Shown here: one piece after another, positions 12,601 to 34,439 of the stretch | Numbering within the stretch: the stretch's first letter is position 1 | Layout of the letters: every line of letters begins with the position of its first letter | Source: a virus | DNA length: 58,366 nucleotides | Virus record (IMG/VR): IMGVR_UViG_3300029288_006769 | Location: 1-58,366 of that record | Reading direction: 5' to 3' (one strand) | Position numbers and translations under genes: made by a program | The notes under the pieces: generated by a model | What the model was told of the DNA's origin: nothing | Databases searched by the model: none | Seen by the model: the letters and a program-made list of their open reading frames with translations, nothing else

Positions 12601-12803
12601 GTTATAGTATTTATAACTGTGATTTCCTGGTTCTTGTTTTTGGTGGGAGCATCGAAAGAAACCGTGGTGATGTTGATTCCTTTTTTTGCCAGGGCATTGA
12701 GGATTTTGGCAATTCTTTTGGTGAAGGTGGCTTGAGTTTCTTCATCGGTTTTGATTAGGTTGACTTGCATTTGCTCTCCTTTGTTTGTTGTTGAATTGTG
12801 CAT
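12579..12803 (-). CDS. hypothetical small protein
   Basis: Track ORF with promoter/SD motif downstream of 12803 on the plus strand. Confidence 0.55.
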   Translation of the reverse strand: MHNSTTNKGEQMQVNLIKTDEETQATFTKRIAKILNALAKKGINITTVSFDAPTKNKNQEITVINTITPAGTFE

Positions 12804-12842
12804 AAACTCTCCTTTTGTTGTACAAGAGTTATATCGCTTGTT

Positions 12843-13088
12843 TTACTTGTACCTGCCAATTAGCTGGTCGTAGATTTGTACTGCTTCATAGAGCCCAATG
12901 TTTGTGGCAGTGCGCAAGCTTTTGACAAATTCGAGTTTCGTTGGAGCTGGGGTTGACATTAACCAGTCATCGGCATATTTTCTGGCTTCGTCGAAAGTGT
13001 ATGTTATCTTGAGTTTTTTCAAGATGTCATCGTCCGGGTATCTTGTCAAAAGAGTGTGATGTTGTTCCGAAGTTAAAATGACGTACAT
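12843..13088 (-). CDS. hypothetical small protein (81 aa)
   Basis: Start moved to the internal Met (MYVILTSEQ...) because the promoter/SD motif CATAAACTCTCC...AGTATATCGCAAG follows 13088. Confidence 0.5.
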   Translation of the reverse strand: MYVILTSEQHHTLLTRYPDDDILKKLKITYTFDEARKYADDWLMSTPAPTKLEFVKSLRTATNIGLYEAVQIYDQLIGRYK

Positions 13089-13224
13089 AAACTCTCCTTT
13101 TTGTTGATAGTAAGTATATCGCAAGTAAGGAGAGACACTGCCCGCAAACCGACTAGCATAAAACAAGTTAGGGCCCATGTAATATATAGGCCCTTGGCTT
13201 GCGGTGTGCTAAACCAGGTCGCTG

Positions 13225-13662
13225 TTAGGTGTCGCTGGTTTCGTCATAATGAATGGTGAAGGAGATTGTCAGTTTTTTGTCGTCGAATTTGAAGTTGGTG
13301 TAGTAGGAGTCCACAAAGCAGTCATCCCTGCCATGGTAGGTGAAATCGAAGTACCGCAAGTCATCCCAGTATTCCCGGACTGACATGTCTTTGGCAGCGA
13401 TCTTGACGCCCTCGGACGTCTCATATTCCCGGTGTTCCTCGGTGGGATTGTCGTAGGCATGCTTGATTTTGTCGTAGAGTGCCTGGTCACAGCCAAAGGT
13501 GATTGTCAAGCCCTCATTTTTGAGATCGCGGAGTTCCGGCAGTTTGTTGGGCAAGCGGTTTTTCCAGTTTTTGGTTTCGAAAGCTTTAAGGGTGAGGTCG
13601 GTGATTACCAATGACTTGAGTTTCTTGGACTTGACCGTGACCGTTTTCTTGCTGATTTCCAT
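13225..13662 (-). CDS. hypothetical protein
   Basis: 145-aa track ORF with motif after 13662. Confidence 0.55.
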   Translation of the reverse strand: MEISKKTVTVKSKKLKSLVITDLTLKAFETKNWKNRLPNKLPELRDLKNEGLTITFGCDQALYDKIKHAYDNPTEEHREYETSEGVKIAAKDMSVREYWDDLRYFDFTYHGRDDCFVDSYYTNFKFDDKKLTISFTIHYDETSDT

Positions 13663-13778
13663 ACCCTCTCTCCTTTGTTAAGTGGTTTTTCCTTTGATAG
13701 TAATTATATCGCAAGAAAACAATCTGATTGCCAAAAACAAAACGGGGCCCGTAGGCCCCAGGGTGAAGGGAAAGCGCA

Positions 13779-14150
13779 TTAGGCAGTTGCCAGGGCGGTG
13801 GTGTCGGCGGCCGGTGCTTTGGCAGTTTTGGTCGTCTTCTTGCTGCTTTGCTTGAAGTATTTCGCCAGGATCTTGTCGAGGTCAACCGTGTCCTCCACAC
13901 CGGCGATGATTCCGCGGACGCTGCCGAGGTGGCATTTCTCGATCTGTTCACCGGTGTACGCCTTGACCCGGTCCCCGAGTTCCTTGAGAACGCTGGTGAC
14001 TTCCAGGGCTCTGCCTTTGAGAATCGCTTTCTTTTCGCCCCGGACGAAGGTGATGCAGGTTTTCTTCGCGATCATTTCGACACCGGCCGGCAGCGTGACT
14101 GCGTTCACTGCAATTGCGTTGGTGTTGGCGGTTGCGGCTTTCTTGCTCAT
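13779..14150 (-). CDS. hypothetical protein, paralog of 17107..17391
   Basis: Internal start MSKKAATANT sits behind the motif. It shares ...TLPxGVEM...ITFxRGEKKAxLKGRALEVT...IEKCHLG...DL.KILA.Y with the paralog. Confidence 0.55.
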   Translation of the reverse strand: MSKKAATANTNAIAVNAVTLPAGVEMIAKKTCITFVRGEKKAILKGRALEVTSVLKELGDRVKAYTGEQIEKCHLGSVRGIIAGVEDTVDLDKILAKYFKQSSKKTTKTAKAPAADTTALATA

Positions 14151-14208
14151 AGAAACTCCTTTGAAAAGGTTGATTGATTTGTTGTTGATAGTGATTATAT
14201 CGATTGTT

Positions 14209-14369
14209 TTACGCCTGACTGCCAGCCTGTGTTTCGCTCTCTGCTGGCCTATTGTCAATTGCCATGTCAGCCAAGAAAGAGATAAGTTGTTTTTCAGCTT
14301 GTTCTCTCTTTCTGAACCTGTCAAAGATTGCTTGTTGCTTGGGACTTGCTTTTTTATATTTGCGTTCCA
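14209..14369 (-). CDS. hypothetical small basic protein (~53 aa)
   Basis: MERKYKKASPKQQAIFDRFRKREQAEKQ... with SD GGAGGAGG. It is not in the ORF track (<60 aa). Coordinates are approximate. Confidence 0.35.
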
Positions 14370-14413
14370 TGTGAATCCTCCTCCTTCATATCGCCAGAAG
14401 AGAAAAAGGCTGC

Positions 14414-14602
14414 CTAATTGGCAGCCTGAGTACGCTGGTCAAGCCGTATTGCGCTGGGGAATTCGATTTTCGGCGTGGTGCCCCGGGCAGCCATGATTGC
14501 GGCTTTTTCAACCTGGAACTGCGCCATTGCCAACCGGATGCTCTCTTCGATTTCACGGTTGCGCATACGTTTCGGATATAGGGTCCTGGTTACTTCAGCC
14601 AT
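14414..14602 (-). CDS. hypothetical small protein (62 aa)
   Basis: Internal start MAEVTRTLYPKR sits behind the motif at 14603..14640. Confidence 0.5.
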   Translation of the reverse strand: MAEVTRTLYPKRMRNREIEESIRLAMAQFQVEKAAIMAARGTTPKIEFPSAIRLDQRTQAAN

Positions 14603-14732
14603 TTTCTCTCCTTTGTTGAGTACAATTACTATATCGCGGGTTTTTAGTGGGCTTGCCAAATCAGCGCGGGCCCGACGAGCAAACACAAAGCTCCCACCTA
14701 TAGGTAACCTATGGGCATGAGCTTGAATGTGC

Positions 14733-14972
14733 TTAGGGATTGTACCAGAACACTAGGATAAAGGTATAACCGGTTTGAGTTTTGGCGAAGTTTTCGATGC
14801 CATAGAAGTCGATCGAAGATCTGCCAAGGTCATTGTCCTCGAGGAAATCGAGCACATTTTCTTCGCTGAGATCATTGGCAGTCGTGAGTTTGACCGGGAC
14901 TCTTGACTTGTCGTTCTCATCCCGGATATCGATAATTTCTTTGGCTTTCAAATTTCTGGCAACTTGGTACAA
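14733..14972 (-). CDS. hypothetical protein with a possible +1/-1 frame discontinuity near its 5' end
   Basis: The ORF begins with TTG at 14972, while the motif-supported ATG at 15012 is out of frame and its frame stops after ~30 codons. An in-frame TGA sits at 15009-15011. Confidence 0.4.
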   Translation of the reverse strand: MYQVARNLKAKEIIDIRDENDKSRVPVKLTTANDLSEENVLDFLEDNDLGRSSIDFYGIENFAKTQTGYTFILVFWYNP

Positions 14973-15038
14973 GCTCGGCAGACTGGTAGCAATGATACCA
15001 GAAAGCGTTCATTAACTCTCTCCTTTGTTGTGCAATAA

Positions 15039-15368
15039 CTATATCGTTGTCAGGTCCAGTGGCTGCCATAGTTCGATTTGTTCGATAGCCAGTTGCAAGT
15101 CAGCCAAGTTTTTGATTTGACCCTCCCACTGGAGTATTGGGCTTATAGGGTTCAACTTGAACCCATGGATCGAATGGATTCTGCCACTCGGATAAATGAC
15201 AAAGTCAATCTCCTCATCGTTGATTCTGTCATATATGGTGGCAAAAATTGAGGGTATGGTAGAGTCGCTGTCTTGGTGGTCAAGAAATACAGCTGTAAAC
15301 CGTTTGGGCAATATGGCAGCCAGGGTTTCTTTTGTGAGAATGTGCATGTGCGAATTTAAGACATTCAT
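15039..15368 (-). CDS. hypothetical protein
   Basis: 109-aa track ORF with SD GGAGAAAA. It has a variant upstream element lacking TATATCG. Confidence 0.5.
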   Translation of the reverse strand: MNVLNSHMHILTKETLAAILPKRFTAVFLDHQDSDSTIPSIFATIYDRINDEEIDFVIYPSGRIHSIHGFKLNPISPILQWEGQIKNLADLQLAIEQIELWQPLDLTTI

Positions 15369-15427
15369 GGTGTCATTTTCTCCTTGTTAAGCGTAATAAC
15401 GTAAGGGGGCGGTTTGACCGCCAACCC

Positions 15428-15493
15428 TTAGCCCTCAATTGCTCCAACGCCCATGAGCACCAGAATGCCAACCAAGTAGATCCCCATAACCAT
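15428..15493 (-). CDS. 21-aa hydrophobic micro-protein (MVMGIYLVGILVLMGVGAIEG)
   Basis: The motif plus SD precede the ATG. A GC hairpin, GGCGGTTTGACCGCC, follows immediately. Coordinates are approximate. Confidence 0.3.
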   Translation of the reverse strand: MVMGIYLVGILVLMGVGAIEG

Positions 15494-15702
15494 AACTCTC
15501 TCCTTTGTTGTGGTGTAGAGTTGATATCGTGCGTTTTGTGTTTGGCAACCAACACAGTTTCGGGCGATATAGTTAATACTGCTAAACGGCGAGGGCTTGT
15601 GCAGGGAGATCGGGGTAGTGTATTTGCTAAACTTGCTTGCTTACGCGTTATACGCTCTTGTACTTGCATACGCCTGCGCTTGTATACGCACTATAGCGCT
15701 TA

Positions 15703-15762
15703 TAAAAACAAAAAAGGTAGGAGCCAAAGGCGCCCTGCCTGGGCACTCATTGGCTACCTACC
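15703..15762 (-). terminator. intrinsic terminator (long hairpin plus U-tract) on the minus strand
   Basis: Minus strand reads GGTAGGTAGCCAATGAGTGCCCAGGCAGGGCGCCTTTGGCTCCTACC followed by TTTTTTGTTTTT, ~40 nt after the stop of gene 15802..16170. Confidence 0.6.
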
Positions 15763-15801
15763 AGTTAAAGGAGAGAGAGATTTTGAGGTGAATTTCGCTT
15801 G

Positions 15802-16170
15802 TTATGCGGCTGCAATTTTTTCTCTGGCAGTCATGACTTTTGCAGCCAAGTCCGTGAACCGAGTTTCTTCCTCAGCAAGTTTCTTTTTATATTCAGCTTC
15901 GATCGCTGCCATGCGATCAGCATGATCTTGATGAACATCACCCGCATGCTCAATCAAGTCATAGGCAGAGTAGATATCGTCAGCGTAAGCGCTGTAGCCC
16001 ATGCCAGGGCCTGAGCGGCTCAACTTGCTGTGTGGCACGTTGACAAGTACGATTCTTGCCTTAGAGTACTTTTTGCGATCATTGGCAATGCGCGTCTTGA
16101 CTTCTTCTTTGTCAGATGAATAGATGCCCGTGAAATGCAGGCCTTGAGCGTGTGCTTGTTGTTCGTTCAT
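15802..16170 (-). CDS. hypothetical protein (123 aa)
   Basis: Internal start MNEQQAHAQ sits behind the motif at 16171..16215. Confidence 0.5.
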   Translation of the reverse strand: MNEQQAHAQGLHFTGIYSSDKEEVKTRIANDRKKYSKARIVLVNVPHSKLSRSGPGMGYSAYADDIYSAYDLIEHAGDVHQDHADRMAAIEAEYKKKLAEEETRFTDLAAKVMTAREKIAAA

Positions 16171-16199
16171 AGTTTTGCTCTCCTTTTGTTTGATAAGAG

Positions 16200-16607
16200 C
16201 TATATCGAGCGTTTCCGGCATGCATGCCATTGATCAATTGCTTTTTGTACGCTGTTTGGCATGCTGTCTGCCAGTTCTTCGTCATTCATTACCATGTCAA
16301 GAGCATCTTCGGCAGCTTTGAGTCTTGCTTTATCAACTGCAAGACATTTTCGTGTCTCATCGCTTGATGGCTGGAATGTATTCCCTTCATCACCAACTTC
16401 AATAAGGCCTTCATGGATCAAGCCGGAAAGCTGTGTGGCAATTTCATACATTTCACATTCCATACCCTGTGACTTCAGGTAGGAATAAATCTCTTTGGCA
16501 GTCACTGGCGCCACAGCATAGATATACTCTTTGATAACGGACCTTCGAATTGCAAGACCCTTGTTTGCTTGTATTTCTTCAGCAGTCTTTCGAATTTTCT
16601 TATCCAT
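16200..16607 (-). CDS. hypothetical protein
   Basis: 135-aa track ORF with motif after 16607. Confidence 0.55.
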   Translation of the reverse strand: MDKKIRKTAEEIQANKGLAIRRSVIKEYIYAVAPVTAKEIYSYLKSQGMECEMYEIATQLSGLIHEGLIEVGDEGNTFQPSSDETRKCLAVDKARLKAAEDALDMVMNDEELADSMPNSVQKAIDQWHACRKRSI

Positions 16608-16634
16608 CGTTTCTCTCCTTGTTGGTGATAGAAG

Positions 16635-16787
16635 CTATATCGAGCGTTGAGCGGGCTTTGCCAAATCGCGTTTGAGCAAAAGCATACTTTGGTGTATATA
16701 AGGCCCTGCATCACTTGTAACGGCGCAATTGATGGCGACTTGCAGCGGGACACGGCACATTCTTGCATAGTCTCTTGCCCAGTTCAT
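16635..16787 (-). CDS. micro-ORF 3 of the coupled trio (50 aa)
   Basis: MNWARDYARMCRVPLQ... Its TAG stop lies inside the next gene's CGATATAG promoter core. Confidence 0.35.
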   Translation of the reverse strand: MNWARDYARMCRVPLQVAINCAVTSDAGPYIHQSMLLLKRDLAKPAQRSI

Positions 16788-16852
16788 TGCCATGGCTTGA
16801 GTTTTTCTTCGCCTATTTGTGCAATCCATTCAAGATCAAGTTGAGCGCTCAT
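16784..16852 (-). CDS. micro-ORF 2 of the coupled trio (22 aa)
   Basis: MSAQLDLEWIAQIGEEKLKPWQ, linked by ATGA overlaps at both ends. Confidence 0.25.
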   Translation of the reverse strand: MSAQLDLEWIAQIGEEKLKPWQ

Positions 16853-16998
16853 TGTCTGCCCTCTTTCTTGAGGATTGCATGCAAGACATACAAGTCGATT
16901 ATTTCTCTGTTGAGTTGACGTACTTGTTCAGTCACGCCAGCTTTTTGTACTACGTGGAGCAGTTTGAGTTTTGATTCGATTTGAAGTTCAAAGTTCAT
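16849..16998 (-). CDS. micro-ORF 1 of a coupled trio (49 aa)
   Basis: The motif at 16999..17035 precedes MNFELQIESK... Its TGA overlaps the next ATG. Confidence 0.35.
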   Translation of the reverse strand: MNFELQIESKLKLLHVVQKAGVTEQVRQLNREIIDLYVLHAILKKEGRQ

Positions 16999-17106
16999 AC
17001 TTTATCTCCTTGTACTGACTATATCGAGAGCAAAAGCACAAGCCGCCATAAAACAAAAAGAGCCCTGGAGTTAACCAGAGCTCTTCCTGCCCGTGGAATT
17101 GGCAGC

Positions 17107-17391
17107 TTACTTGTAATAGGCGGCCAGGATTTTGGTCAGGTCGATGGCATCGGCCACGCCACGGACGACGCCCTTGATCGCGCCGAGGTGGCATTTTTCG
17201 ATGATTTCCTCGGTGTACGTTTCGATGCGCTTGAGCGTCTTGGGCGTGTTGGTGACTTCCAGGGCCCGGCCCTTGAGCACCGCTTTCTTTTCACCGCGGA
17301 TGAACGTGATCGCGGATTTGCCGGGTTTCATTTCCACGCCCTTGGGCAGCGTAACGGCATTCAGGTCAATGGCGGCAACTGCTTTACTCAT
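17107..17391 (-). CDS. hypothetical protein, paralog of 13779..14150
   Basis: 94-aa track ORF. The upstream leader CTCATAG(T/A)AACTCCTTTGAAAAGGTTG... is also duplicated. Confidence 0.55.
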   Translation of the reverse strand: MSKAVAAIDLNAVTLPKGVEMKPGKSAITFIRGEKKAVLKGRALEVTNTPKTLKRIETYTEEIIEKCHLGAIKGVVRGVADAIDLTKILAAYYK

Positions 17392-17518
17392 AGTAACTCC
17401 TTGAAAAGGTTGTGTTCCTCCTGATAGAGGTTATGTCGCATGTTTTTGCAGGACCTGCCAATGTACTTACTTGTAGTATTGCTGCTACGCGCGTATAGCG
17501 CGCACGCAAGCGCTTGAG

Positions 17519-17575
17519 CACAAACAAAAAAGGTAGGGAGTTACAAGGGTGTTGAGCACCCATTGGCTACCTACC
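17519..17575 (-). terminator. intrinsic terminator on the minus strand, paralogous to 15703..15762
   Basis: Minus strand reads GGTAGGTAGCCAATGGGTGCTCAACACCCTTGTAACTCCCTACC followed by TTTTTTGTTTGT. The outer stem is conserved and the inner stem covaries (GGGTG/CACCC versus GCCC/GGGC). Confidence 0.6.
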
Positions 17576-17582
17576 ATGTGTA

Positions 17583-17744
17583 TTAAGTTAGAAAGAAGAA
17601 TTCGTCCAGCGAACTTGCAGTGTTGAGAGCGATTGCCAGATTGAGAAAGTCTTCTTGGCCAATTACTGTGTCACGGTCAGGCCGTCCACCCAGGAACGGG
17701 ATACTTACTGGTATCTGGTATTTTGTTTTTTGTGTGCGTTCCAT
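17583..17744 (-). CDS. hypothetical small protein (53 aa)
   Basis: The motif CATAACTCTCTCTCCTTGTTAGTTGTTAAAAACTATATCGAGAG precedes it. It is not in the ORF track. Confidence 0.4.
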   Translation of the reverse strand: MERTQKTKYQIPVSIPFLGGRPDRDTVIGQEDFLNLAIALNTASSLDEFFFLT

Positions 17745-17917
17745 AACTCTCTCTCCTTGTTAGTTGTTAAAAACTATATCGAGAGATTTTGAGTAACTAC
17801 CAACATAGCTACGACTGTGCGTAGCACAACAAGTCGTTATTATATATTGTACCATTAAGTGTAGTGCAATAAAACAGCGCTGGGCCCCGTAGGGCCCTTG
17901 GCTGTAAGGAGAGAAAG

Positions 17918-18562
17918 TTATTTGATATAAGGTTTGGATTTGCCACAGAGTGCCCGGAGTTGTGCCACATTGGCAGCATTGCCGGCAATTTTGTAGAGCC
18001 GTTCATCGAAACCTTCCTTCAGTTCGTACTTCATGACCGTCTGGAAGAACTTGCTGAAGTTGGCACCGAGCAATTTTGTCAGCTCTGCTTTCAAGACAGC
18101 ATCCTCGAAAACTTCGGGTTTGAGGGTGACAATCGGTTTTGTCTTGACTTCGACAGCGAACTGGTCGCCGAGCAAGACCTTGAGTGTGTCGATTGCGTCG
18201 GTTGAAACTGAGAACTTGTCCTGGGAGATGAAGGTGGCTTTCGTCTTGCCGTCGTCGCTCAGTACTGAATAGGACCCGGAAAAATCGCCTGCAAGGCCGT
18301 CGGTATCCTGGCGGTTCAAGCAGAGTTCCAGCAGGGGTCCTTCCTCGGACCGGAAGGTACCTTCGGCGGCTTTCATTTCGCGTTTGGCTTTCAGCATTTT
18401 CTCCAGTTTTGCTGACTGAGCCGCATCCAGCTTGATGACAGGTTTTTTGTCCTTGGATTTGACGGCATCCGGGGAAATTGTGGATGTGCCGACCATTTGT
18501 TCGAATGACAGATCGGTATTTGCCGTTGCAACGGCAACTGGATCTGCTTTTCTTTTGGCCAT
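17918..18562 (-). CDS. hypothetical protein
   Basis: 214-aa track ORF with motif after 18562. Confidence 0.55.
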   Translation of the reverse strand: MAKRKADPVAVATANTDLSFEQMVGTSTISPDAVKSKDKKPVIKLDAAQSAKLEKMLKAKREMKAAEGTFRSEEGPLLELCLNRQDTDGLAGDFSGSYSVLSDDGKTKATFISQDKFSVSTDAIDTLKVLLGDQFAVEVKTKPIVTLKPEVFEDAVLKAELTKLLGANFSKFFQTVMKYELKEGFDERLYKIAGNAANVAQLRALCGKSKPYIK

Positions 18563-22579: not shown

Positions 22580-22580
22580 A

Positions 22581-27953: not shown

Positions 27954-28052
27954 ATATCACCTCCTGTTACTTTCTATATCGTGTATTGTTTAAAAACAGC
28001 CAAGGGCGCCCAACCAATATGCGCCCCAGCTATAAAAGGTTTGCTACTTGCT

Positions 28053-28931: not shown

Positions 28932-28987
28932 AACTCTGCTCCTTGGTTAAGGGTTTTGTTGGTTACAAAAGCAATATCGTGTGTTTC

Positions 28988-29329
28988 TCACCGTTTTGCC
29001 AAAACTGCTGCAACTTTATGGTGCAACGCCAACATACCCCGTATATCCTTAGCTGTCAGTCTGTGTGCAAACGGGTATTGATAAGCATCACCGAGTGGCA
29101 GGTGTATTAGTACTACCGGGGCTAAACTTACAATTATGTAGCGGGCATCTCCGTCAGCCACGCCAAAACTGATTTCTTCTCCGGCTTCGGGCCATTTACC
29201 ATGCTCCTTTGCCCAGGCTTTCACCTGCTCAACAAAAGCATGTTCTCGTATTACGTTCTCTTCTCTGGGCAACTTATGGTCCCATTTGGGAGCCTCGATA
29301 CCTTTTGGTGGGTCATATACTTTCCCCAT
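28988..29329 (-). CDS. hypothetical protein
   Basis: Track ORF with motif after 29329. Confidence 0.5.
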   Translation of the reverse strand: MGKVYDPPKGIEAPKWDHKLPREENVIREHAFVEQVKAWAKEHGKWPEAGEEISFGVADGDARYIIVSLAPVVLIHLPLGDAYQYPFAHRLTAKDIRGMLALHHKVAAVLAKR

Positions 29330-29391
29330 TATCCCTCCTTGTTATTTGCTATATCGCGTGCTGCTCATGGTTCTGCCTATACCCGAACCAC

Positions 29392-29613
29392 TCATAATCG
29401 CAAACAAGAGACTCGCACAAAATTCCTGCCTGTCTCGTACGCTCTTACTGGCTTGCCACATTTCGGGCAAATTTTGGGTGGCTCTAACTGGTCAGGCCAT
29501 GTTACATAGCGACAAGAGCTACAAATTAGCTGGTGGTCAACATGCCCACCATACGCCTTCTTGTCATATTCAAAAAGTTTACCACCACATTTCGGGCAAA
29601 TCAAGTCGCTCAT
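29392..29613 (-). CDS. zinc-ribbon protein
   Basis: CPKCGGK...CSSC...CPKCGKP provides two CxxC pairs. An ATGA overlap links it to the upstream gene. Confidence 0.45.
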   Translation of the reverse strand: MSDLICPKCGGKLFEYDKKAYGGHVDHQLICSSCRYVTWPDQLEPPKICPKCGKPVRAYETGRNFVRVSCLRL

Positions 29614-29843
29614 AATGCTTCTCCAGCTGCTTGTTCGGCATTTGACATGTCAGCCAAATGTTTGCCACGCTCAATAAAAAAACGTACTTGATCCCTGTAC
29701 TTCTTGGGTATTGTGTCCCAAGTCTCTCGGATCCGCACCACTTCTTCGACTTTGTCAGTCCAGTGCGTAAATTCGTCAGCCTCATGTATGGGTAATCCCC
29801 AACTATTCTTGGGCTGATAATCGTCTTCTTTTTTCCGTTTCAT
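29610..29843 (-). CDS. hypothetical basic protein (77 aa)
   Basis: Internal start MKRKKEDDY is supported by an ATGA overlap. Confidence 0.4.
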   Translation of the reverse strand: MKRKKEDDYQPKNSWGLPIHEADEFTHWTDKVEEVVRIRETWDTIPKKYRDQVRFFIERGKHLADMSNAEQAAGEAL

Positions 29844-30202
29844 TTTTCGTACTCCGGCTTCCACATTACAAAGTTCAAGTACTGCTGCTCAGTCCACTCG
29901 TACTCAATATCATTGCCGAAAGTCAACTGGTACTGTACAGCTTCAACAAGCGTATCATGCACTGCTTTTGTATAGGTTATCCCATACCTTGGTATGTTTT
30001 CACGCAGCCCGCTCGCCAAACTACAATTTATAAGGTATAGGATTTTATGGTTAGGCATGTCGAGCAAAGCGACGATCATGTTAGCCACTTTATGTGCCAA
30101 CTCAATCATTACCTGTGGTATTGCTTCAGGGTGCTCAAGGTCAATCCCACACCCAGCCAAAAAAACCTCGCACAACCGGCTACGTTCATTTTGCGTGTTC
30201 AT
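29840..30202 (-). CDS. hypothetical protein (first of a three-gene coupled operon)
   Basis: Motif after 30202. Its TGA overlaps the next ATG. Confidence 0.5.
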   Translation of the reverse strand: MNTQNERSRLCEVFLAGCGIDLEHPEAIPQVMIELAHKVANMIVALLDMPNHKILYLINCSLASGLRENIPRYGITYTKAVHDTLVEAVQYQLTFGNDIEYEWTEQQYLNFVMWKPEYEK

Positions 30203-30296
30203 ACTCTCTCCTTTATTACTCTAACCATATCGTGCGCTCAAAACAAAAAAGCCAAGGTTACCCCTGGCTCATTTTATACTTGTTAGTTCTTTATTT

Positions 30297-31211
30297 CTAA
30301 AAGTGTCGTTTAAATTCTTTTGCATTGTTTAAACCAACCAAGTAATCTTGAGCAGCTTTAAGCGTCAAGCTATGCGTACCCTGGAAACTCACATACCGTA
30401 TTTCAACTTTGTTACCCTTGTGCGTTGCACTGGCGCCAAATAACGGCTGGTGCTCTCCTTGTTGCTTATTCCAGGGTGTCGCTTCCCATGTTCTCAAGTG
30501 TCCGTTTATTGCGTCAGCAACTTCCATAGCACACATCCCGTATACATCCTTAGTCACACGTGCTTTCGGCTTGTACCCGGTCACTACTGGTGCTGCACTC
30601 TTGTCTGCAAGTAAATTGCTTGCTTCACCTACCGGCAACAACTTAACCAGGGTACTCTCATCCACGTTCAACCCGTGCTGAGTCTGCAAAAATACTCCCA
30701 GTTGGCAAGCAACCTGTGTTTGCATTGTGCCCAGTTCCTCTTCAGCCTGCTGCACAACGAAATCGTCATTCTCGCCAAAATGGCTCAATATGGTATCAGC
30801 CTGCGACAAAAAGTCTTCCAGTTTCCTCTTACCAGCACTCCCACCAGCCACAGCCTCGTACAAATCTTTCTTCAAGTCGGCTATCCTGCTGCGCAGCTCC
30901 TGGCGGCTATCTCCCAAGCGCTCTTTCATCCGGCTCCGCACCGTTTTAGGCCGCTCAACTTGCTCCGTTATTATTTGGCCATCAAGCCCACGGTAACGCT
31001 CCAGGGTACAGGGCACCTCGCCATTGTACATAAGTGTACGGGTCATCTGCTCAAAAGTGAGCGCCACCCTTGCCACCAGCCTGCCATCAGGGTCTTTTAT
31101 TTCCATGCTTACGTAGTGGTGCTGGGGTACCATTGCTCCATTGAGCCAGCTACCACTGCTGCTGGTCATGGTCATACACACTGTGCTTGTTTCTTTGCCT
31201 TCCAATTTCAT
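30297..31211 (-). CDS. hypothetical protein (304 aa)
   Basis: Track ORF with an ATGA overlap to the upstream gene. Confidence 0.5.
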   Translation of the reverse strand: MKLEGKETSTVCMTMTSSSGSWLNGAMVPQHHYVSMEIKDPDGRLVARVALTFEQMTRTLMYNGEVPCTLERYRGLDGQIITEQVERPKTVRSRMKERLGDSRQELRSRIADLKKDLYEAVAGGSAGKRKLEDFLSQADTILSHFGENDDFVVQQAEEELGTMQTQVACQLGVFLQTQHGLNVDESTLVKLLPVGEASNLLADKSAAPVVTGYKPKARVTKDVYGMCAMEVADAINGHLRTWEATPWNKQQGEHQPLFGASATHKGNKVEIRYVSFQGTHSLTLKAAQDYLVGLNNAKEFKRHF

Positions 31212-31486
31212 ATTAGGTCCCTCTCTCCCTGTTCGTAAATACGAAAATCAGTTTCCTCTCGTGCAATTTCATCAAGCGTAGTTTCGAGCTGCTTAAGCAT
31301 TTGTTCAGCCGCTCGCTTGTCAGCAGCTATACGCATACACTTGTCGTATCGTTCACTGGGCATACACGGCCTGCACGTATCAAACTGGCATGTTTCAAAC
31401 GTAAGTATGTCAATTTGAGTAATTTCGGGCAGTGCCTCAGCCGCCTGCTGCGCTCTCATTTCGCGTTCGTTGCTGTCATCCCACAT
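31208..31486 (-). CDS. hypothetical acidic protein
   Basis: Motif after 31486. It is coupled to the downstream 304-aa gene. Confidence 0.5.
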   Translation of the reverse strand: MWDDSNEREMRAQQAAEALPEITQIDILTFETCQFDTCRPCMPSERYDKCMRIAADKRAAEQMLKQLETTLDEIAREETDFRIYEQGERDLI

Positions 31487-31655
31487 AACAACTCCTTGTT
31501 AGTTGCTATATCGTGTGAAGCCAGGCTCCTTACCAGGTCATGTTCTTAAACACCTGGCGGTGCTTGCCAAAACCGAAATCCAAATAAACCACGCACTTGG
31601 GCTGCATCTTAAAAAACTTACGTACCTGTGCCATAACTTGCTCCTTGTTTAGGTG

Positions 31656-32744
31656 TTACTTGCCACATATTTTCTTTATATCAGGTTCGGGCACCCATAT
31701 GCCCTGGTATTTTGTCAACTCTCCATTGCACTTAAATAATAACTCTCCAGCTCCTTTAAGGCGCTCAGCCCCCGGCTCATCAAGTATTATGCGACTATCT
31801 TGTCTGCTCTCTACTCTAAAAGCCACCCTTGCTGGCATGTTAGCCTTTATCAAACCTGTCATTATTTCGACTACCGGGCGCTGTGTTGCCATTACAATAT
31901 GCATACCAGCAGCCCTTGCCAACTGTGCCAACCGAGTTATTTTATCACTTATTGTCTTGTCTTCGCTCTGCATCATCAAGTCAGCCACCTCATCAATTAC
32001 CAAAACTATATATGGTAACTTTGTTTTGGCTACTTGGTTATATGCATCAAGAGATTTAACGTCGTGCCTTGCAAGCAACTCATACCGGCTCTCCATTTCG
32101 TCTACCAAACTACTAAGCAAACCGCTTGCTTGGTCAAGTTTAGTAGCTATAGGTGCATACAAGTGCGGTACGCTCCGGTACAAAGCAAACTCAACCCGTT
32201 TTGGGTCAACCAATGCGAGTTGCACTTGCTCCGGCTGTAATTTATACAACAAACTCAGTATAGCAACGTTCAAGAAAACAGATTTACCCGAGCCAGTAGT
32301 ACCGGCTACCAATAAATGGGGCATACGGCTCAAATCAATTACCTTGTTTGCGCTCAATACTACTGGCAACCGCTCATTTGCTATATGATTAAAGGTTGTT
32401 ATGCCCGTAAAATCAAGTGGAGTGGCATTAACTACAGGAGTGCTAACGTCTGGTGTAGTTGATGCCACTAAATCTGCAGGAAACATTATCAAATACTTGC
32501 TCACTTCAAAATCAATCTCTCCTATATATTTAAGGTCGCGCTCAATTTTATCAAGCTTACTCGCTATCATCCCTACGTTCACACGTTTTATGCGCTCTAC
32601 CTCGTCCTCCACCTCACTATAATGTAACCTGGCCTGCATTTGCCTTATGTCTAACGGGCTCGCGCCGCACCCTACCATGCTACTCAACGTTTTACACAAC
32701 GCCCGGTCAACTTTCAAAGTTTCCAATATCTCCTTAAGATTCAT
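31656..32744 (-). CDS. FtsK/SpoIIIE-family DNA-translocase-like ATPase
   Basis: Walker A LLVAGTTGSGKS, Walker B IVLVIDEVADL, then MHIVMATQRP and NMPARVAFRVESRQDSRIIL. The motif follows 32744. Confidence 0.7.
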   Translation of the reverse strand: MNLKEILETLKVDRALCKTLSSMVGCGASPLDIRQMQARLHYSEVEDEVERIKRVNVGMIASKLDKIERDLKYIGEIDFEVSKYLIMFPADLVASTTPDVSTPVVNATPLDFTGITTFNHIANERLPVVLSANKVIDLSRMPHLLVAGTTGSGKSVFLNVAILSLLYKLQPEQVQLALVDPKRVEFALYRSVPHLYAPIATKLDQASGLLSSLVDEMESRYELLARHDVKSLDAYNQVAKTKLPYIVLVIDEVADLMMQSEDKTISDKITRLAQLARAAGMHIVMATQRPVVEIMTGLIKANMPARVAFRVESRQDSRIILDEPGAERLKGAGELLFKCNGELTKYQGIWVPEPDIKKICGK

Positions 32745-33194
32745 AGTCGCTCCACATGGGTTATTGGTTTACGTAGCGTTATATCGTGCGCTTTTCCTTA
32801 ACTAACCAAAACATACATGCTAAATACTCGCCAGGGTACTATACCCATGTTTACCCTATACACTATATCGTGTGCTATATTGCTGGCAGCCACAACACAC
32901 CCGCCAAAAATTGTACCCTGCCAAAACTATAACAAAACAGTTAAACAGCGCGCACAAGCAGCCAAATAACAACTCTAACACACTAAAAGCTATCTAGCGT
33001 TGTAGCGCTATCACCACATGAATTACAAGATTTAGAGCAACCTACTTGTGGAATTTACTAACATATTTACTAGCATAAAAGGTAGGAATATAGCACAACA
33101 TATAACTCATACAAAAAGAGCGGAGCAAACCGTGGTAGCACTCCATAAGTTCACCCCGCCCAGTATTGCATAAGAGTTACGAAAGGAGAAGCTC

Positions 33195-33611
33195 TTACGC
33201 AAAATATTTGGTTACCAACTCGTTCAACTCGTCCTGGCTGGTCACTTTCCCCAGCATACGCGTTTTCCCCAGGTGGTTCTTCTTCGCTTCTTCCTCGCTT
33301 ACTGCTTTAAAACCCTTCAACCCGGTTACCTTATGGGTCAAACCCACACTGGCTCCACGTACCCACATACGTTTCTCTCCGGCTTCTGCCGTAATTACGT
33401 ACTTGGTCTCATTCACGGTCACGCCCTTGGTTGCCTTAATTTTCAAAGGCTCCTTCTTCACACGCGGCTGCTTTGCCTTCTTGTCCTTGTCTACCGGCTT
33501 AGTCTGCTTGGGTTCCGGTTTTTTCCCTGTTGCGGCTTTCTTCGCCATTTCGTCTTCTCCTCCTACCGGCTGCGTATCTCCCGCCTCCGGAATCGTTCCT
33601 GTATCGCCCAT
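33195..33611 (-). CDS. Lys-rich hypothetical protein (possible nucleic-acid binding)
   Basis: Track ORF. The motif AATTTATATCGTGCACTC lies upstream. Confidence 0.45.
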   Translation of the reverse strand: MGDTGTIPEAGDTQPVGGEDEMAKKAATGKKPEPKQTKPVDKDKKAKQPRVKKEPLKIKATKGVTVNETKYVITAEAGEKRMWVRGASVGLTHKVTGLKGFKAVSEEEAKKNHLGKTRMLGKVTSQDELNELVTKYFA

Positions 33612-33702
33612 ATCGTCAACTCCTTCTAGAAAATCAGTTGAACTAGCATCTACAGCATAAATTTATATCGTGCACTCAATATTATGTCTTTTATTTTACA
33701 GT

Positions 33703-33933
33703 TTACCCAGCAAATCTATGTGCAGCCTCTATCTCTTCTCTGCTCAATATACTCTCTTCCTTATAAACTATAACTACCGGCGCTCTATCCTCCTCCAACC
33801 CAGTATTATAAGCAACACACTCTACTACATGCAATGCCTTCTCAAAGCGCTCCTGATATAGCCGCGCCTCTTCTCTCCCAAACTCCTTATTCACCGCAAG
33901 CAGCTCCCTCAATTTTTTCGTTTCTATCAGCAT
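33703..33933 (-). CDS. hypothetical small protein
   Basis: Track ORF coupled to the upstream gene. Confidence 0.4.
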   Translation of the reverse strand: MLIETKKLRELLAVNKEFGREEARLYQERFEKALHVVECVAYNTGLEEDRAPVVIVYKEESILSREEIEAAHRFAG

Positions 33934-33935
33934 AA

Positions 33936-34148
33936 CTATTCCTCCTGCTGCTCACACACGTGCGCAACAAACTTGTCCAAATTTATCTCTTCGTTCAACT
34001 TATCTTCATTCCCTCTATACTTACACCCTTTACACTTTTTATCAGCTCCCGGCTCCTTACAAAACGAAAGCCGAAAGATAATATTCGTGGCAAACAAACC
34101 ACAACGATACTCCTTCTCCCACCTACGCTTTCTTTTCATACTACTCAT
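33936..34148 (-). CDS. Cys-rich basic small protein (71 aa), leaderless candidate
   Basis: Internal start MSSMKRKRRW. The promoter core CGATAT runs directly into ATG with no SD. Confidence 0.35.
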   Translation of the reverse strand: MSSMKRKRRWEKEYRCGLFATNIIFRLSFCKEPGADKKCKGCKYRGNEDKLNEEINLDKFVAHVCEQQEE

Positions 34149-34439
34149 ATCGCCCGAACATCTATTACATTGCCAACACAGAACGACACCTAGCAGACGC
34201 ACGCGCCTGCACGCGCTACGCGCGTACGCGAAGCTCTCGAGTTTTTCAAACTTGCTCGATATGCCCGAGCCACAACCAACAAAAAACAAGCAACAAAAAA
34301 ACTCCCTCAACAACCAGCCACATGCCCGACACACCCGAGCAAACTTGCATAACTATTTACCAGTGCACTTGAATGCGCATATACGCGCTTGCAATTCTCA
34401 TATACATTATGCGTTCTAGAACACGTTTATAGGGTTATA

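What the first reader, a model, noticed from the sequence alone, without database searches (positions are those of the whole stretch)
12800..34200. A conserved ~28-nt promoter/SD element precedes almost every gene of a 22-kb unidirectional array
On the plus strand, the pattern CAT-n4-8-CTCTCCTTGTT-n5-11-TAnCTATATCGTGnG recurs immediately after essentially every minus-strand start codon between 12.8 and 33.7 kb.

The copies I can see sit downstream of 12803, 13088, 13662, 14150, 14369, 14602, 15012, 15493, 16170, 16607, 16998, 17391, 17744, 18562, 18653, 19416, 19955, 20232, 20654, 21104, 21445, 22361, 22964, 24161, 24906, 27225, 27499, 27953, 28931, 29329, 30202, 31486, 32744, ~32866 and 33611. 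Outlying copies lie at 44878, 47623, 52447 and 55101.

Read on the coding strand the element is (C)ACGATATAG, then ~8 nt, then AACAAGGAGAG, then 4-8 nt, then ATG. The invariant core is CGATATAG about 22-30 nt upstream of the ATG; the near-invariant AAGGAGAG is clearly the Shine-Dalgarno. Only ~10 nt are conserved upstream of the SD, and nothing resembling a -35 box is kept.

The core ends in TATAG, like the +1 region of single-subunit phage RNAP promoters (T7 CACTATAG, SP6 ACACTATAG). This fits a phage-specific promoter whose transcripts start a few nt before the SD, giving a very short uniform 5' UTR. Neighbouring genes' stop codons sometimes lie inside the element; for example the TAG of the 16635 gene is the TAG of CGATATAG. 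No RNA polymerase gene lies in this window.

One promoter per tiny gene across ~45 genes is an unusual architecture; most phage early regions use a few promoters plus read-through.
Basis: seen in the sequence. Interest (0 to 1): 0.8.

Follow-up and report, generated by a model that had tools for sequence, protein, structure and literature searches.

The report
Repeated two-box promoter in huge phage
About 40 copies of one two-part promoter (TTGGCA, 16-17 bases, CGATATAG), usually with a strong ribosome-binding site, drive the small early genes of an uncultivated ~424-kb phage. This layout is known from T4-type phages, but the promoter sequence fits no described polymerase specificity.

Summary
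CGATATAG occurs 25 times against 0.68 expected, 23 of them on the minus strand.

TTGGCA lies 16 or 17 nt upstream of CGATAT in about 9 of 10 copies, so a -35-like element is kept. Two boxes with a spacer that varies by one base indicate a sigma-type promoter, not a T7-type one.

Several conserved genes lack a Shine-Dalgarno and have their ATG exactly 13 nt after the C of CGATAT. This puts the likely start site at the conserved T12-A13. CGATAT then sits at -13..-8 and TTGGCA at about -36..-31, which is the published sigma-28 geometry. The -35 sequence, however, is not the sigma-28 one.

The window is phage DNA: rIIA, rIIB, an FtsK-like gene and DUF932, with the same phage on contigs up to 424 kb. 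The motif persists in relatives whose rIIA is 38-58% identical and whose GC is 26-36%. It is not enriched in any of 185,579 cellular species genomes.

One promoter, often with a terminator hairpin, per small gene matches the PeSL cassettes of T4-type phages, so the layout is not new. The consensus, and the unidentified factor that reads it, may be new. No sigma or RNA polymerase gene lies in the roughly 75 kb of this phage that I could read.

The parts
12579..34176 (-). Unidirectional array of ~47 mostly small ORFs. It includes an FtsK/SpoIIIE-like gene (31656-32744), DUF932 (28053-28931), rIIA (25048-27225) and rIIB (23076-24161). About 36 promoter copies lie in it.
   Evidence: ORF lists; Pfam and PHROGs; the same gene order in relatives.
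34139..34176 (-). Promoter TTGGCA-18-CGATATGA. The ATG of a conserved 67-aa Cys-rich ORF (34139-33936) lies at +13 with no SD (leaderless type).
   Evidence: Orthologs MKRKRRW(I/E)(K/V)(E/A)YR also start at +13 in L011, L012 and L013.
33657..33677 (-). CGATATAA box before gene 33195-33611, with no TTGGCA box. The leader is conserved in L011 and L012.
32857..32893 (-). Promoter GTGGCT-17-CGATATAG. It is the first of a tandem pair upstream of the FtsK-like gene, with no ORF directly behind it.
32773..32809 (-). Promoter TTGGTT-17-CGATATAA before the FtsK-like gene (ATG 32744).
31500..31536 (-). Promoter CTGGTA-17-CGATATAG, then SD, then ATG 31486.
30219..30255 (-). Promoter TTGGCT-17-CGATATGG, then ATG 30202. 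A terminator hairpin (30270-30249) overlaps the -35 box and its T-run lies in the spacer.
29343..29379 (-). Promoter TAGGCA-17-CGATATAG, then ATG 29329.
28966..29002 (-). Promoter TTGGCA-17-CGATATTG, then a long leader and ATG 28931 (DUF932).
27968..28003 (-). Promoter TTGGCT-16-CGATATAG, then ATG 27953. A hairpin lies just upstream.
27516..27552 (-). Promoter TTGGCA-17-CGATATAG, then ATG 27499. A terminator hairpin with a T-run lies upstream.
27255..27290 (-). Promoter TTGGCT-16-CGATATAG, then the rIIA ATG at 27225. The leader holds the hairpin TTAGTGT...ACACTAA starting at +8.
24920..24956 (-). Promoter CGGGCA-17-CGATATAG, then ATG 24906. A terminator lies at 25005-24982.
24184..24219 (-). 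Promoter TTGGCA-16-CGATATAG, then the rIIB ATG at 24161.
22980..23015 (-). Promoter TTGGCA-16-CGATATAG, then ATG 22964 (highest matrix score, 39). A hairpin with a T-run lies upstream.
22377..22412 (-). Promoter TTGGTA-16-CGATATAG, then ATG 22361.
21893..21929 (-). Orphan copy AAGGCA-17-CGATATTA with no SD or ORF directly behind it.
21466..21501 (-). Promoter TTGGCA-16-CGATATAA, then ATG 21445.
21127..21162 (-). Promoter AAGGCA-16-CGATATAG, then ATG 21104.
20671..20707 (-). Promoter GTGGCA-17-CGATATTG, then ATG 20654. A terminator lies at 20764-20739.
20247..20283 (-). Promoter TCGGTA-17-CGATATAG, then ATG 20232.
19972..20008 (-). Promoter CCGGCA-17-CGATATAG, then ATG 19955.
19436..19471 (-). 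Promoter TTGGCT-16-CGATATAG, then ATG 19416.
18670..18705 (-). Promoter ATGGCA-16-CGATATAG, then ATG 18654 (a 25-codon ORF).
18585..18621 (-). Variant promoter AAGGCA-17-CGACATAG, then ATG 18562.
17768..17803 (-). Promoter TTGGTA-16-CGATATAG, then ATG 17744.
17425..17461 (-). Variant promoter TTGGCA-17-CGACATAA, then ATG 17391.
17013..17049 (-). Promoter ATGGCG-17-CGATATAG, then ATG 16998. A strong terminator hairpin with a T-run lies just upstream.
16629..16664 (-). Promoter TTGGCA-16-CGATATAG, then ATG 16607. Its TAG is the stop codon of gene 16635-16829.
16194..16230 (-). Promoter ATGGCA-17-CGATATAG, then ATG 16170. Its TAG is the stop codon of gene 16200-16607.
15516..15552 (-). Promoter TTGGTT-17-CGATATCA, then ATG 15493.
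15033..15069 (-). Promoter ATGGCA-17-CGATATAG, then ATG 15012. Its TAG is the stop codon of gene 15039-15368.
14623..14659 (-). Promoter TTGGCA-17-CGATATAG, then ATG 14602.
14380..14416 (-). Promoter TAGGCA-17-CGATATGA, then ATG 14370. The terminator hairpin 14427-14407 includes the -35 box.
14189..14225 (-). Promoter CTGGCA-17-CGATATAA, then a long leader and ATG 14150.
13698..13734 (-). Promoter TTGGCA-17-CGATATAA, then ATG 13662. The terminator 13760-13743 lies just upstream.
13108..13144 (-). Promoter CGGGCA-17-CGATATAC, then ATG 13088. A terminator lies at 13194-13170.
12823..12859 (-). Promoter TTGGCA-17-CGATATAA, then ATG 12803 (the last unit of the array).
15542..15578 (+). Full promoter copy on the opposite strand (TTGGCA-17-CGATATAG). 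It points into the ORF-poor gap at 15.53-15.78 kb and may make an antisense or small RNA.
10205..10241 (+). Outlying copy TTGGCA-17-CGATATCT. The ATG of gene 10242-10583 lies at +14 with no SD.
44873..44909 (-). Outlying copy TTGGCA-17-CGATATCT, then ATG 44831. This is the operon that contains the PilW/N_methyl pilin-like gene.
47617..47652 (-). Outlying copy GTGGCA-16-CGATATAC, then ATG 47597.
52441..52477 (-). Outlying copy TTGGTT-17-CGATATAA. The ATG of gene 51785-52441 lies at +13 with no SD.
55095..55131 (-). Outlying copy TCGGCA-17-CGATATAG, then ATG 55062.
57885..57921 (-). Outlying copy TTGGCA-17-CGATATTG upstream of gene 57645-57848.

Best explanation
**What it is.** The repeat is a bipartite, sigma-factor-type promoter fused to a short Shine-Dalgarno leader. 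It is reused about 40 times to express the early, orphan-gene-rich region of an uncultivated phage of about 424 kb.

**Anatomy**, numbered from the C of CGATAT as position 0:
- A -35-like hexamer TTGGCA, with the GG nearly invariant.
- A non-conserved spacer of 16 or 17 nt, whose last bases tend to read aaCtCa.
- A -10-like box CGATAT(A)(G), in which GATAT is invariant.
- Five variable bases, then a conserved T12-A13.
- Usually (a/t)CAA-AAGGAGAG, 4-8 nt, then ATG.

**Inferred steps.**
- Transcription starts at or next to A13. CGATAT then occupies -13..-8 and TTGGCA about -36..-31.
- This is the geometry by which a two-domain sigma-70-family factor holds a promoter. It coincides with the sigma-28 class, but with a different -35 word.
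I think that sigma is phage-encoded or phage-delivered. It is not identified.

**Shown directly by the sequence.**
- Many units begin just after, or overlap, a hairpin with a T-run (a terminator). Others lie inside the end of the preceding gene.
- The array is therefore a chain of one- to three-gene cassettes with nested read-through, like the PeSL cassettes of T4-type phages.
- Shown: the motif, its two boxes, the spacing, the strand bias, the link to gene starts and terminators, and conservation in relatives.
- Inferred: the start site, the class of polymerase factor, and early timing.
For: **The motif is real and two-part.**
- CGATATAG occurs 25 times against 0.68 expected. Matrix hits are 35 on the minus strand, 1 on the plus strand and 0-1 in shuffles.
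- The logo shows G at -20 in 32 of 34 copies, T at -22 in 23 of 34, and a weakly conserved stretch between the boxes.
- Spacers are 16 nt at 58 sites and 17 nt at 68 sites across seven phage sequences, with only 5 other values.
- I also anchored only on the -35 box plus a downstream SD-ATG. Then 76 of 87 sites have CGATATAG with at most 2 mismatches at the right distance. G1, A2, A4 and T5 are 76 of 76.

**Start site.**
- Twelve ORFs of at least 40 codons begin at +13 to +17 with no SD, six of them exactly at +13.
- These include the ortholog set MKRKRRW... in the window, L011, L012 and L013, and window gene 51785-52441.
- SD-like words start at +15 or later in nearly all copies.
- T12 is present in 28 of 34 copies and A13 in 23 of 34.

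**Geometry.** The P. aeruginosa sigma-28 open complex has (-36)TCTAAAG(-30) and (-15)GCCGATAA(-8), with A-11 flipped out (PMC12784957). With the start at +13, CGATAT falls on CGATAA and A2 becomes A-11.

**It is a phage.**
- rIIA, rIIB and FtsK-like PHROGs match, and there is a tail-protein fragment.
- Exact proteins from the window lie on contigs of 422-424 kb.

**Conservation.**
- The same two-box motif is among the top 8-mers, on the coding strand only, in relatives with rIIA 52-58% identical and 35-36% GC.
- It persists at lower density at 42% and 38% rIIA identity, in sequences of 33% and 26% GC.

**Not a general cellular promoter.**
- The 17-base pattern found 70 single, taxonomically scattered hits in 596 Gb of cellular genomes. 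No locus had more than one hit at matrix score 14 or above.
- The approx. 16 kb of the same phage read beyond the two window ends has 0-1 copies.

**Terminators.** Hairpins with T-runs lie before many copies, some overlapping the -35 box.

**Architecture precedent.** PeSLs are described in PMC2839356.

**Sigma use in such phages.**
- Jumbo phages of the T4-like-core group (group 2, defined by T4-type replication and capsid genes) lack RNA polymerases but encode sigma factors (PMC7824862).
- A distant relative, L016, has a Sigma70_r2 gene three kb from its DUF932-rIIA-rIIB block.
Against: - No sigma or polymerase gene was found in the 58-kb window or in roughly 16 kb of further flanking DNA from the same phage. 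The 20-kb rIIA neighbourhoods of the motif-bearing relatives also have none.
- No transcript data exist, so the start site is inferred.
- The rIIA leader carries a hairpin that starts at +8. It is kept, with different stem sequences, in L013 and L014. If it acts in the primary transcript, the start must be at or before +8.
- The -35 word (TTGGCA) and positions -15/-14 do not match sigma-28. TTGGCA is one base away from the sigma-70 TTGACA, so a host housekeeping enzyme with unusual -10 reading is not excluded.
- Early timing rests only on gene content (rIIA, rIIB and small orphan genes).
Confidence: 0.65

Rival explanations
1. The host housekeeping sigma reads the element as an extended -10 promoter. 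In this reading C/T-G-A-TATAG-Y is a TGnTATAAT-like box, TTGGCA is a near-consensus -35, and these are ordinary strong early promoters for unmodified host polymerase, as in T4-type PeSLs.
For: - TTGGCA is 5 of 6 identical to TTGACA.
- G1 is invariant, like the G of the TG motif.
- T replaces C at position 0 in 4 of 76 sites, giving TGATATAG.
- T3-A4-T5 are invariant.
- The PeSL precedent uses sigma-70-like promoters.
- Early genes of phages without a virion polymerase normally use the host holoenzyme (established knowledge).
Against: - With TATAGY as the -10 hexamer the spacer would be 19-20 nt, and the start would fall at about +15 to +17.
- That start lies downstream of the six conserved SD-less ATGs at +13.
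- The position that would be T-7 is not conserved. Position 8 is C in 14, T in 13, A in 5 and G in 2 of 34 copies.
- The sigma-70 consensus scan found no excess: 36 hits against 26.5 +/- 5 in shuffles.
- No cellular genome shows enrichment of the pattern.
- The flanks of the same phage hardly use it.
Confidence: 0.15
2. These are early promoters for a virion-delivered, phage-encoded multisubunit RNA polymerase of the phiKZ/AR9 kind. Those enzymes recognise a roughly 10-nt conserved motif centred near -10.
For: - Jumbo phages that encode such polymerases have a conserved ~10-nt motif at about -10 before early operons (PMC7598289).
- The phage is huge, about 424 kb.
- aCtCaCGATATAG is centred near -10 if the start is at +13.
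Against: - Those motifs are AT-rich and single-box. Here a second box at fixed but flexible distance (16/17 nt) is conserved.
- The jumbo-phage group that lacks polymerases and uses sigma factors is the T4-like-core group (PMC7824862). This phage carries rIIA and rIIB, which are classic T4-type early genes.
- No beta/beta'-like gene lies in the DNA I could read.
Confidence: 0.1
3. One reading: a promoter for a T7/SP6-like single-subunit polymerase, with +1 at the G of TATAG.
For: - The box ends in TATAG.
- aCtCaC upstream resembles ACTCAC of the T7 promoter if a 2-nt insertion is allowed (my alignment from the logo, with the T7 consensus from memory).
- The rIIA leader hairpin starts at +8, right after the G.
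Against: - The element is bipartite, with a variable, non-conserved spacer.
- Positions that would be -17..-13 are not conserved.
- SD-less genes start at +13.
- No ORF above 725 aa exists in the window, so no such polymerase is encoded here.
- Most jumbo phages outside the phiKZ-like group encode no polymerase.
Confidence: 0.06
4. The element acts only at the RNA level, as a processing site, stabiliser or translational enhancer on long transcripts made from a few promoters.
For: - Three copies overlap the end of the upstream gene, so read-through RNA must contain them.
- The SD part certainly acts in RNA.
Against: - Many copies sit directly after hairpin-plus-T-run terminators.
- Two boxes 16 or 17 nt apart with a free spacer, and no conserved pairing, do not look like an RNA motif.
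- SD-less ORFs start at a fixed distance.
- A full copy on the opposite strand points into a gene-poor gap.
- Rfam found only the tRNA.
Confidence: 0.04

Closest known systems
PeSL (promoter-early stem-loop) cassettes of T4-type phages (Arbiol et al. 2010, PMC2839356; Comeau et al. 2014, PMC4122927)
   Same: - Dozens of copies per genome of one composite motif.
- Each copy is a strong early promoter plus a terminator stem-loop, placed directly before a small orphan gene in a variable region.
- The stem-loop may lie upstream of the -35 box, or overlap the -35 box or the spacer, as seen here at 30232, 27981 and 14393.
- rIIA and rIIB are present in both kinds of phage.
   Different: - PeSL promoters are sigma-70-like (TTGACA/TATAAT with an AT-rich upstream region). 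Here the -10 box is CGATATAG.
- The SD and start-site region are also part of the conserved unit here.
- Only about 14 of 36 array copies have a clear hairpin.
- Recombination between copies was not tested here.
Sigma-28 (FliA/SigD) class promoters, TAAAG-N-GCCGATAA
   Same: - The core -10 word is CGATA(A/T).
- The distance between the two boxes is the same.
- With the start at +13, the positions are the same: -13..-8 and about -36..-30 (PMC12784957).
   Different: - The -35 word is TTGGCA, not TCTAAAG/TAAA.
- The GC at -15/-14 is replaced by C-(A/G).
- Two further bases (A6, G7) are conserved.
- The context is a phage early-gene array, not flagellar genes.
- No FliA-like gene was found.
Promoter classes read by phage-encoded sigma factors (for example SPO1 gp28 and gp33/34, T4 gp55; named from memory)
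   Same: One phage-specific consensus unlike the host's, reused before a whole temporal class of genes, with host core polymerase.
   Different: The consensus here matches none of them. The sigma is not identified, and the temporal class is unknown.
T7/T3/SP6 single-subunit polymerase promoters
   Same: The box ends in TATAG, there is one copy per transcription unit, and a purine-rich leader follows.
   Different: - T7-type promoters are one contiguous block of about 23 bp.
- Here there are two boxes and a spacer of 16 or 17 nt.
- The inferred start is 6 nt further downstream.

Membership tests
Sigma-70-family bipartite promoter (generic) | Two conserved boxes separated by a non-conserved spacer of about 16-18 bp that tolerates +/-1 | tested here: met
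   TTGGCA and CGATAT are separated by 16 nt (58 sites) or 17 nt (68 sites), with 5 other values, in seven phage sequences. Spacer columns carry little information.
Sigma-70-family bipartite promoter (generic) | Start site 6-8 nt downstream of the -10 box, typically pyrimidine then purine | tested here: inconclusive
   There are no transcript data. Indirect support: T12-A13 is conserved, SD-less ORFs start at +13 to +17, and SDs start at +13 or later. Against: the rIIA leader hairpin starts at +8.
Sigma-70-family bipartite promoter (generic) | A sigma factor that binds it | not testable with these tools
   No sigma homolog lies in the window or in the fetched flanks and relatives, except in distant L016. 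The rest of the 424-kb contig could not be fetched.
Housekeeping sigma-70 promoter (TTGACA-17-TATAAT) | A -10 hexamer with A at -11 and T at -7 | tested here: not met
   In the frame set by the spacer and the +13 start, -7 is A6 (27 of 34 copies). In the alternative TATAGY frame, -7 is C or T in equal shares and the spacer is 19-20 nt. The consensus scan shows no excess.
Sigma-28/FliA promoter | A -10 box GCCGATAA at -15..-8 | tested here: inconclusive
   The CGATA(T) core is met and invariant. The GC at -15/-14 is not met: position -2 is C in 24 of 34 copies, and position -1 is A or G. Positions depend on the inferred start.
Sigma-28/FliA promoter | A -35 box TAAA(G) at about -36..-30 | tested here: not met
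   The box at that position reads TTGGCA.
T7-like single-subunit polymerase promoter | Contiguous conservation from about -17 to +6 with no separate upstream box or variable spacer | tested here: not met
   The element is bipartite with a variable spacer.
T7-like single-subunit polymerase promoter | A cognate single-subunit polymerase gene in the genome | not testable with these tools
   None lies in the window (largest ORF 725 aa) or in the extra flank DNA.
PeSL cassette (T4-type phages) | A repeated composite of an early promoter plus a terminator stem-loop, directly upstream of small orphan genes, many copies per genome | tested here: met
   About 36 copies lie in 22 kb, before 32 of ~47 ORFs. 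Hairpins with T-runs lie before or overlap about 14 of them. Nearly all ORFs have no family match.
PeSL cassette (T4-type phages) | The promoter is sigma-70-like | tested here: not met
   The -10 box is CGATATAG.
PeSL cassette (T4-type phages) | Copies act as recombination points for cassette gain and loss | not tested
   Gene content between conserved anchors differs between the window and L002, L007 and L011-L013. Breakpoints were not mapped to the motif.
phiKZ/AR9-type virion polymerase early promoter | A single AT-rich motif of about 10 nt centred near -10, plus split beta/beta' genes in the genome | tested here: inconclusive
   A -10-centred motif is present, but it has a second box and is not AT-rich. 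Polymerase genes were not found in the DNA available.

The most novel reading that the evidence does not exclude
A clade of uncultivated ~425-kb phages encodes or injects an undescribed sigma-like specificity factor. Its promoter grammar is a hybrid: a sigma-70-like -35 word (TTGGCA) and a sigma-28-like -10 word (CGATAT at -13..-8). It drives the whole orphan-gene early array, including true leaderless mRNAs. The highly conserved promoter-SD-terminator unit also serves as the recombination handle for cassette exchange.
Probability: 0.4. Interest if true: 0.6.

Novelty: new variant of a known kind. Interest (0 to 1): 0.45.

Why it matters
- If a phage-specific sigma reads this motif, it gives a clean, information-rich orthogonal promoter. 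About 130 natural variants from seven phages are already aligned.
- It also shows how huge uncultivated phages schedule their orphan-gene regions.
- The motif is a cheap marker for finding and orienting early regions of this clade in metagenomes.
- The fixed +13 leaderless starts would give start-site calls without any transcriptomics.
- It extends the PeSL idea, promoter-terminator cassettes as units of gene shuffling, beyond T4-type coliphages to a different promoter chemistry.
- It is not a new principle of gene expression.

Tried and rejected
- **Cultured relatives.** Megablast of the array against 50,697 phage records found nothing. tblastn with rIIA gave only distant hits, at most 38% identity over half the protein.
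- **Public huge phage LR756500 (462 kb, 24% GC).** I fetched 41 kb around its rIIA and the motif is absent. It could not serve as a complete-genome proxy.
- **Exact-pattern scans** for CGATATAGNNNNTAACAAGGAGAG. IMG/VR gave 0 hits and cellular genomes gave 0. Metagenome contigs gave 4 small relatives, L007-L010.
- **Host use of the promoter.** The scan for TTGGCA-N12/13-CTCN-CGATATAG in 596 Gb of cellular genomes gave 70 scattered single hits.
- **Finding the sigma.**
  - I used the Sigma70_r2 protein of distant relative L016 as bait. I looked for hits on contigs of 424,144 or 426,911 bp and found none. The top hits are short RpoD-like proteins named as Fibrobacteres or Spirochaetes.
  - tblastn of those sigmas against the window and all family loci found nothing outside L016.
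  - PHROGs on the unannotated plus-strand block at 34.6-41.2 kb and on the larger array ORFs gave no transcription-related family.
- **Stop-codon recoding**, suggested by the tRNA with anticodon CTA. ORF statistics give no support.
- **Sigma-54 reading of TGGCA.** Rejected, because no GC element lies 12 nt downstream of the GG.
- **Archaeal TATA/BRE reading**, prompted by MAG names 'Nanoarchaeia' and by ATGs 27-31 nt after the box. Rejected for four reasons:
  - The SD tracks the ATG, not the box.
  - SD-less ORFs start at +13.
  - The terminators are of the bacterial intrinsic type.
  - A second box lies 17 nt upstream.
- **N4-type hairpin promoter.** Rejected. Only a 3-4 bp ATAG/CTAT pairing is possible, and it is not kept in the window.
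- **CTTGCAA**, frequent in L014, lies inside coding sequence.
- **Literature search** for the motif string returned only unrelated primers.

Full report
**Observation.** The element exists as described.
- CGATATAG occurs 25 times in 58 kb against 0.68 expected from dinucleotide-preserving shuffles. 23 copies are on the minus strand.
- A regular expression for CGATAT, then an SD, then a start codon finds 30 minus-strand copies and none on the plus strand.
- A weight matrix built from the array copies finds 35-40 minus-strand sites, 1-4 plus-strand sites and 0-2 in shuffles.
- The shared TAG between a gene's stop and the next CGATATAG is true for the genes ending at 16635, 16200 and 15039.

I aligned the copies on the C of CGATAT, taken as position 0.
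- A second conserved box appears: T-22, G/T-21, G-20 (32 of 34 copies), C/G-19, A-18. This reads TTGGCA.
- It is separated from CGATAT by a stretch with little information, apart from a weak aaCtCa just before the box.
- In the window, 42 of 50 minus-strand CGATAT sites have such a hexamer at 16 or 17 nt. On the other strand the figure is 4 of 16.
- To avoid circularity I anchored on the upstream box plus a downstream SD-ATG only. Of 87 such sites, 76 have CGATATAG with at most two mismatches at the right distance. G1, A2, A4 and T5 are invariant, and C0 is present in 72 of 76.
- Downstream of the box, T12 (28 of 34) and A13 (23 of 34) are conserved wherever the SD lies.

The unit is therefore TTGGCA-N16/17-CGATATAG-N4-TA, followed in most copies by (a/t)CAA-AAGGAGAG-N4-8-ATG.

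**What the DNA is.**
- PHROGs identifies the 725-aa and 361-aa array genes as rIIA and rIIB. It also identifies an FtsK/SpoIIIE-like phage protein, homing endonucleases and a tail-protein fragment at the window edge.
- Pfam adds DUF932 and a PilW/N_methyl pilin-like protein.
- The exact FtsK-like protein lies on six metagenome contigs, up to 422 kb, that are 92-100% identical to the window. The rIIA cluster gives a longest contig of 424,144 bp.
- DNA beyond the window carries ribosomal protein S21, NAPRTase, a cellulase, PspA and similar genes.
- This is a huge uncultivated phage. Two NCBI bins that hold it are named 'Candidatus Nanoarchaeia archaeon', which I take to be mis-binning.
- No close cultured relative exists.

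**Conservation.** I fetched the rIIA neighbourhoods of graded relatives.
- At 57%, 58% and 52% rIIA identity (L011, L012, L013; 35-36% GC against 43-49% in the window's array), CGATATAG is again among the most frequent 8-mers. It lies on the coding strand only, with TTGGCA 16-17 nt upstream in about 70-95% of copies.
- At 42% and 38% identity (L014, 33% GC; L015, 26% GC) the two-box motif persists at lower density, with CGATAT(A/T)(A/T).
- At 31% identity (L016), and in the public 462-kb phage LR756500, it is gone.
- The motif therefore belongs to one phage clade and survives large shifts in base composition.

**Where transcription starts (inferred).** Twelve ORFs of at least 40 codons in six phages begin at +13 to +17 with no SD. 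Six begin exactly at +13.
- One is a 55-67-aa Cys-rich protein, MKRKRRW..., found in the window (ATG 34139) and in L011, L012 and L013.
- Another is window gene 51785-52441.

Such genes make sense only as leaderless or near-leaderless mRNAs, so the start must be at or just before +13. SD-like words begin at +15 or later in almost all other copies. T12-A13 is the usual pyrimidine-purine start pair.

One observation pulls the other way. The rIIA leader has a hairpin starting at +8, and it is kept with different stem sequences in L013 and L014. It may act on read-through RNA from the upstream unit, since no terminator separates the two. It also leaves room for a start near +7 or +8.

**What reads it (inferred).**
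- Two boxes with a one-base-flexible spacer are the signature of a two-domain sigma-70-family factor.
- With the start at +13, CGATAT is at -13..-8 and TTGGCA at about -36..-31.
- The cryo-EM structure of a sigma-28 open complex has (-36)TCTAAAG(-30) and (-15)GCCGATAA(-8), with A-11 flipped out (PMC12784957). The spacing and the CGATA core therefore coincide, and A2 would be A-11.
- The -35 word and the -15/-14 bases differ, so this is not a sigma-28 promoter.
- It is also a poor housekeeping promoter. In either possible frame, the base at -7 is not the conserved T.
- The sigma-70 consensus scan shows no excess.
- The pattern is not enriched in any of 185,579 cellular species genomes: 70 scattered single hits, none with a second matrix hit.
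- The same phage barely uses it outside the array. The two 20-kb loci at the window ends have 0-1 copies.
- Jumbo phages of the T4-like-core group lack polymerases but encode sigma factors (PMC7824862). Distant relative L016 has a Sigma70_r2 gene next to its rIIA block.

I therefore favour a phage-encoded or phage-delivered sigma acting on host core enzyme. I could not find it. No sigma or polymerase homolog lies in the window, the flanks or the close relatives' loci. Using the L016 sigma as bait did not pick up any protein from the 424- or 427-kb contigs.

**Architecture.**
- Of about 47 array ORFs, 32 have their own copy. The others mostly overlap or abut the preceding gene.
- About 14 copies follow a GC-rich hairpin with a T-run. 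In three (30232, 27981, 14393) the hairpin includes the -35 box and the T-run lies in the spacer.
- Three copies lie inside the end of the upstream gene.
- This is the PeSL design described for T4-type phages. Those phages carry about 50 promoter-plus-stem-loop cassettes per genome before small orphan genes, with the stem-loop upstream of, overlapping or between the boxes (PMC2839356; PMC4122927).
- One promoter per tiny gene is therefore not unusual for this kind of phage region.

**Rivals.**
- The T7-like reading fails on the bipartite structure and the +13 starts.
- The phiKZ-type virion polymerase reading fits the '-10-centred motif before early operons' rule (PMC7598289). It does not fit the second box or the rIIA-type gene content.
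- A host sigma-70 extended -10 reading (cG-A-TATAG-Y) is the most serious rival. It needs a 19-20 nt spacer and a start downstream of the conserved +13 ATGs.
- An RNA-only role is contradicted by the terminators in front of many copies and by the geometry.

**Verdict.** This is a real, strongly non-random and evolutionarily conserved promoter-SD cassette.
- What remains open, and moderately interesting, is the identity of the factor that reads TTGGCA-N16/17-CGATATAG.

Noticed in passing
window 1278-1350 (-): A tRNA with anticodon CTA, which reads the amber codon. ARAGORN types it as Pyl, and it is the only Rfam hit in the window. ORF statistics show no sign that TAG is recoded in any part of the window.
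   Followed up: partly
window 15542-15780 (+): A full-strength promoter copy on the opposite strand (TTGGCA-17-CGATATAG, C at 15565). It points into an ORF-poor gap of about 230 bp rich in GCGTATA-like words. The predicted ~190-nt RNA folds strongly (-68.7 kcal/mol, no shuffle control run). It may be an antisense or small RNA.
   Followed up: partly
window 27226-27260 (-); L011, L012, L013, L014 just upstream of position 10001: The rIIA 5' leader carries a hairpin (TTAGTGT, loop, ACACTAA) starting 8 nt after the C of CGATAT. Loop length varies. The stem sequence differs in L013 and L014, but a hairpin remains at the same place.
   Followed up: partly
window 12000-47000 against the flanks; L011-L013: The array and the middle block have 40-49% GC. 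Both flanks of the same phage have 33-37%, and the orthologous arrays of relatives have 35-36%. I have no explanation for this.
   Followed up: no
window 34200-34600: The divergent intergenic region between the array and the plus-strand block has several GAACAGCTATAAGA-like repeats and GCGCGTA-rich tracts. Similar tracts lie at 15.6-15.7 kb and 17.45-17.50 kb. It may be a replication origin or a regulatory region.
   Followed up: no
window 34600-41200 (+): A block of about 15 plus-strand ORFs with extreme G-over-C skew (up to 0.38) and no copy of the promoter. Only one ORF has a family match (NikA-like, 37164-37376). PHROGs finds nothing informative.
   Followed up: partly
window 13779-14150, 17107-17391, 33195-33611 (-): A three-member paralog family within the array (63% and 29% identity). 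The first two share a distinct longer leader, ccttttcaa(a)ggagtt, in place of the usual AAGGAGAG.
   Followed up: partly
P0002 and P0010; contig JAQUND010000007.1 of GCA_028717785.1 (L002, L018): NCBI metagenome bins that hold this phage and a relative are labelled 'Candidatus Nanoarchaeia archaeon'. The gene content (rIIA/rIIB, bacterial-type terminators, SD, pilin-like N_methyl) points to a bacterial phage that was mis-binned.
   Followed up: partly
L017 1-8700 and L018 1-8000 (same phage, beyond the window ends): The phage carries ribosomal protein S21, NAPRTase, a cellulase, a response-regulator domain protein, PspA, a rhomboid protease and a ligand-gated ion-channel-like protein.
   Followed up: no
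window 14917-15012 and 14733-14972 (-): The promoter and SD at 15046 lead to an ATG at 15012 that opens only a 31-codon frame. A longer ORF without a good start follows in another frame. This may be a frameshifted or decaying gene.
   Followed up: no
L016 5679-6512 (-): A distant relative (rIIA 31% identical, no CGATAT motif) encodes a 277-aa Sigma70_r2 protein beside its DUF932-rIIA-rIIB block. Its closest named relatives are short RpoD-like sigmas of Fibrobacteres and Spirochaetes.
   Followed up: partly
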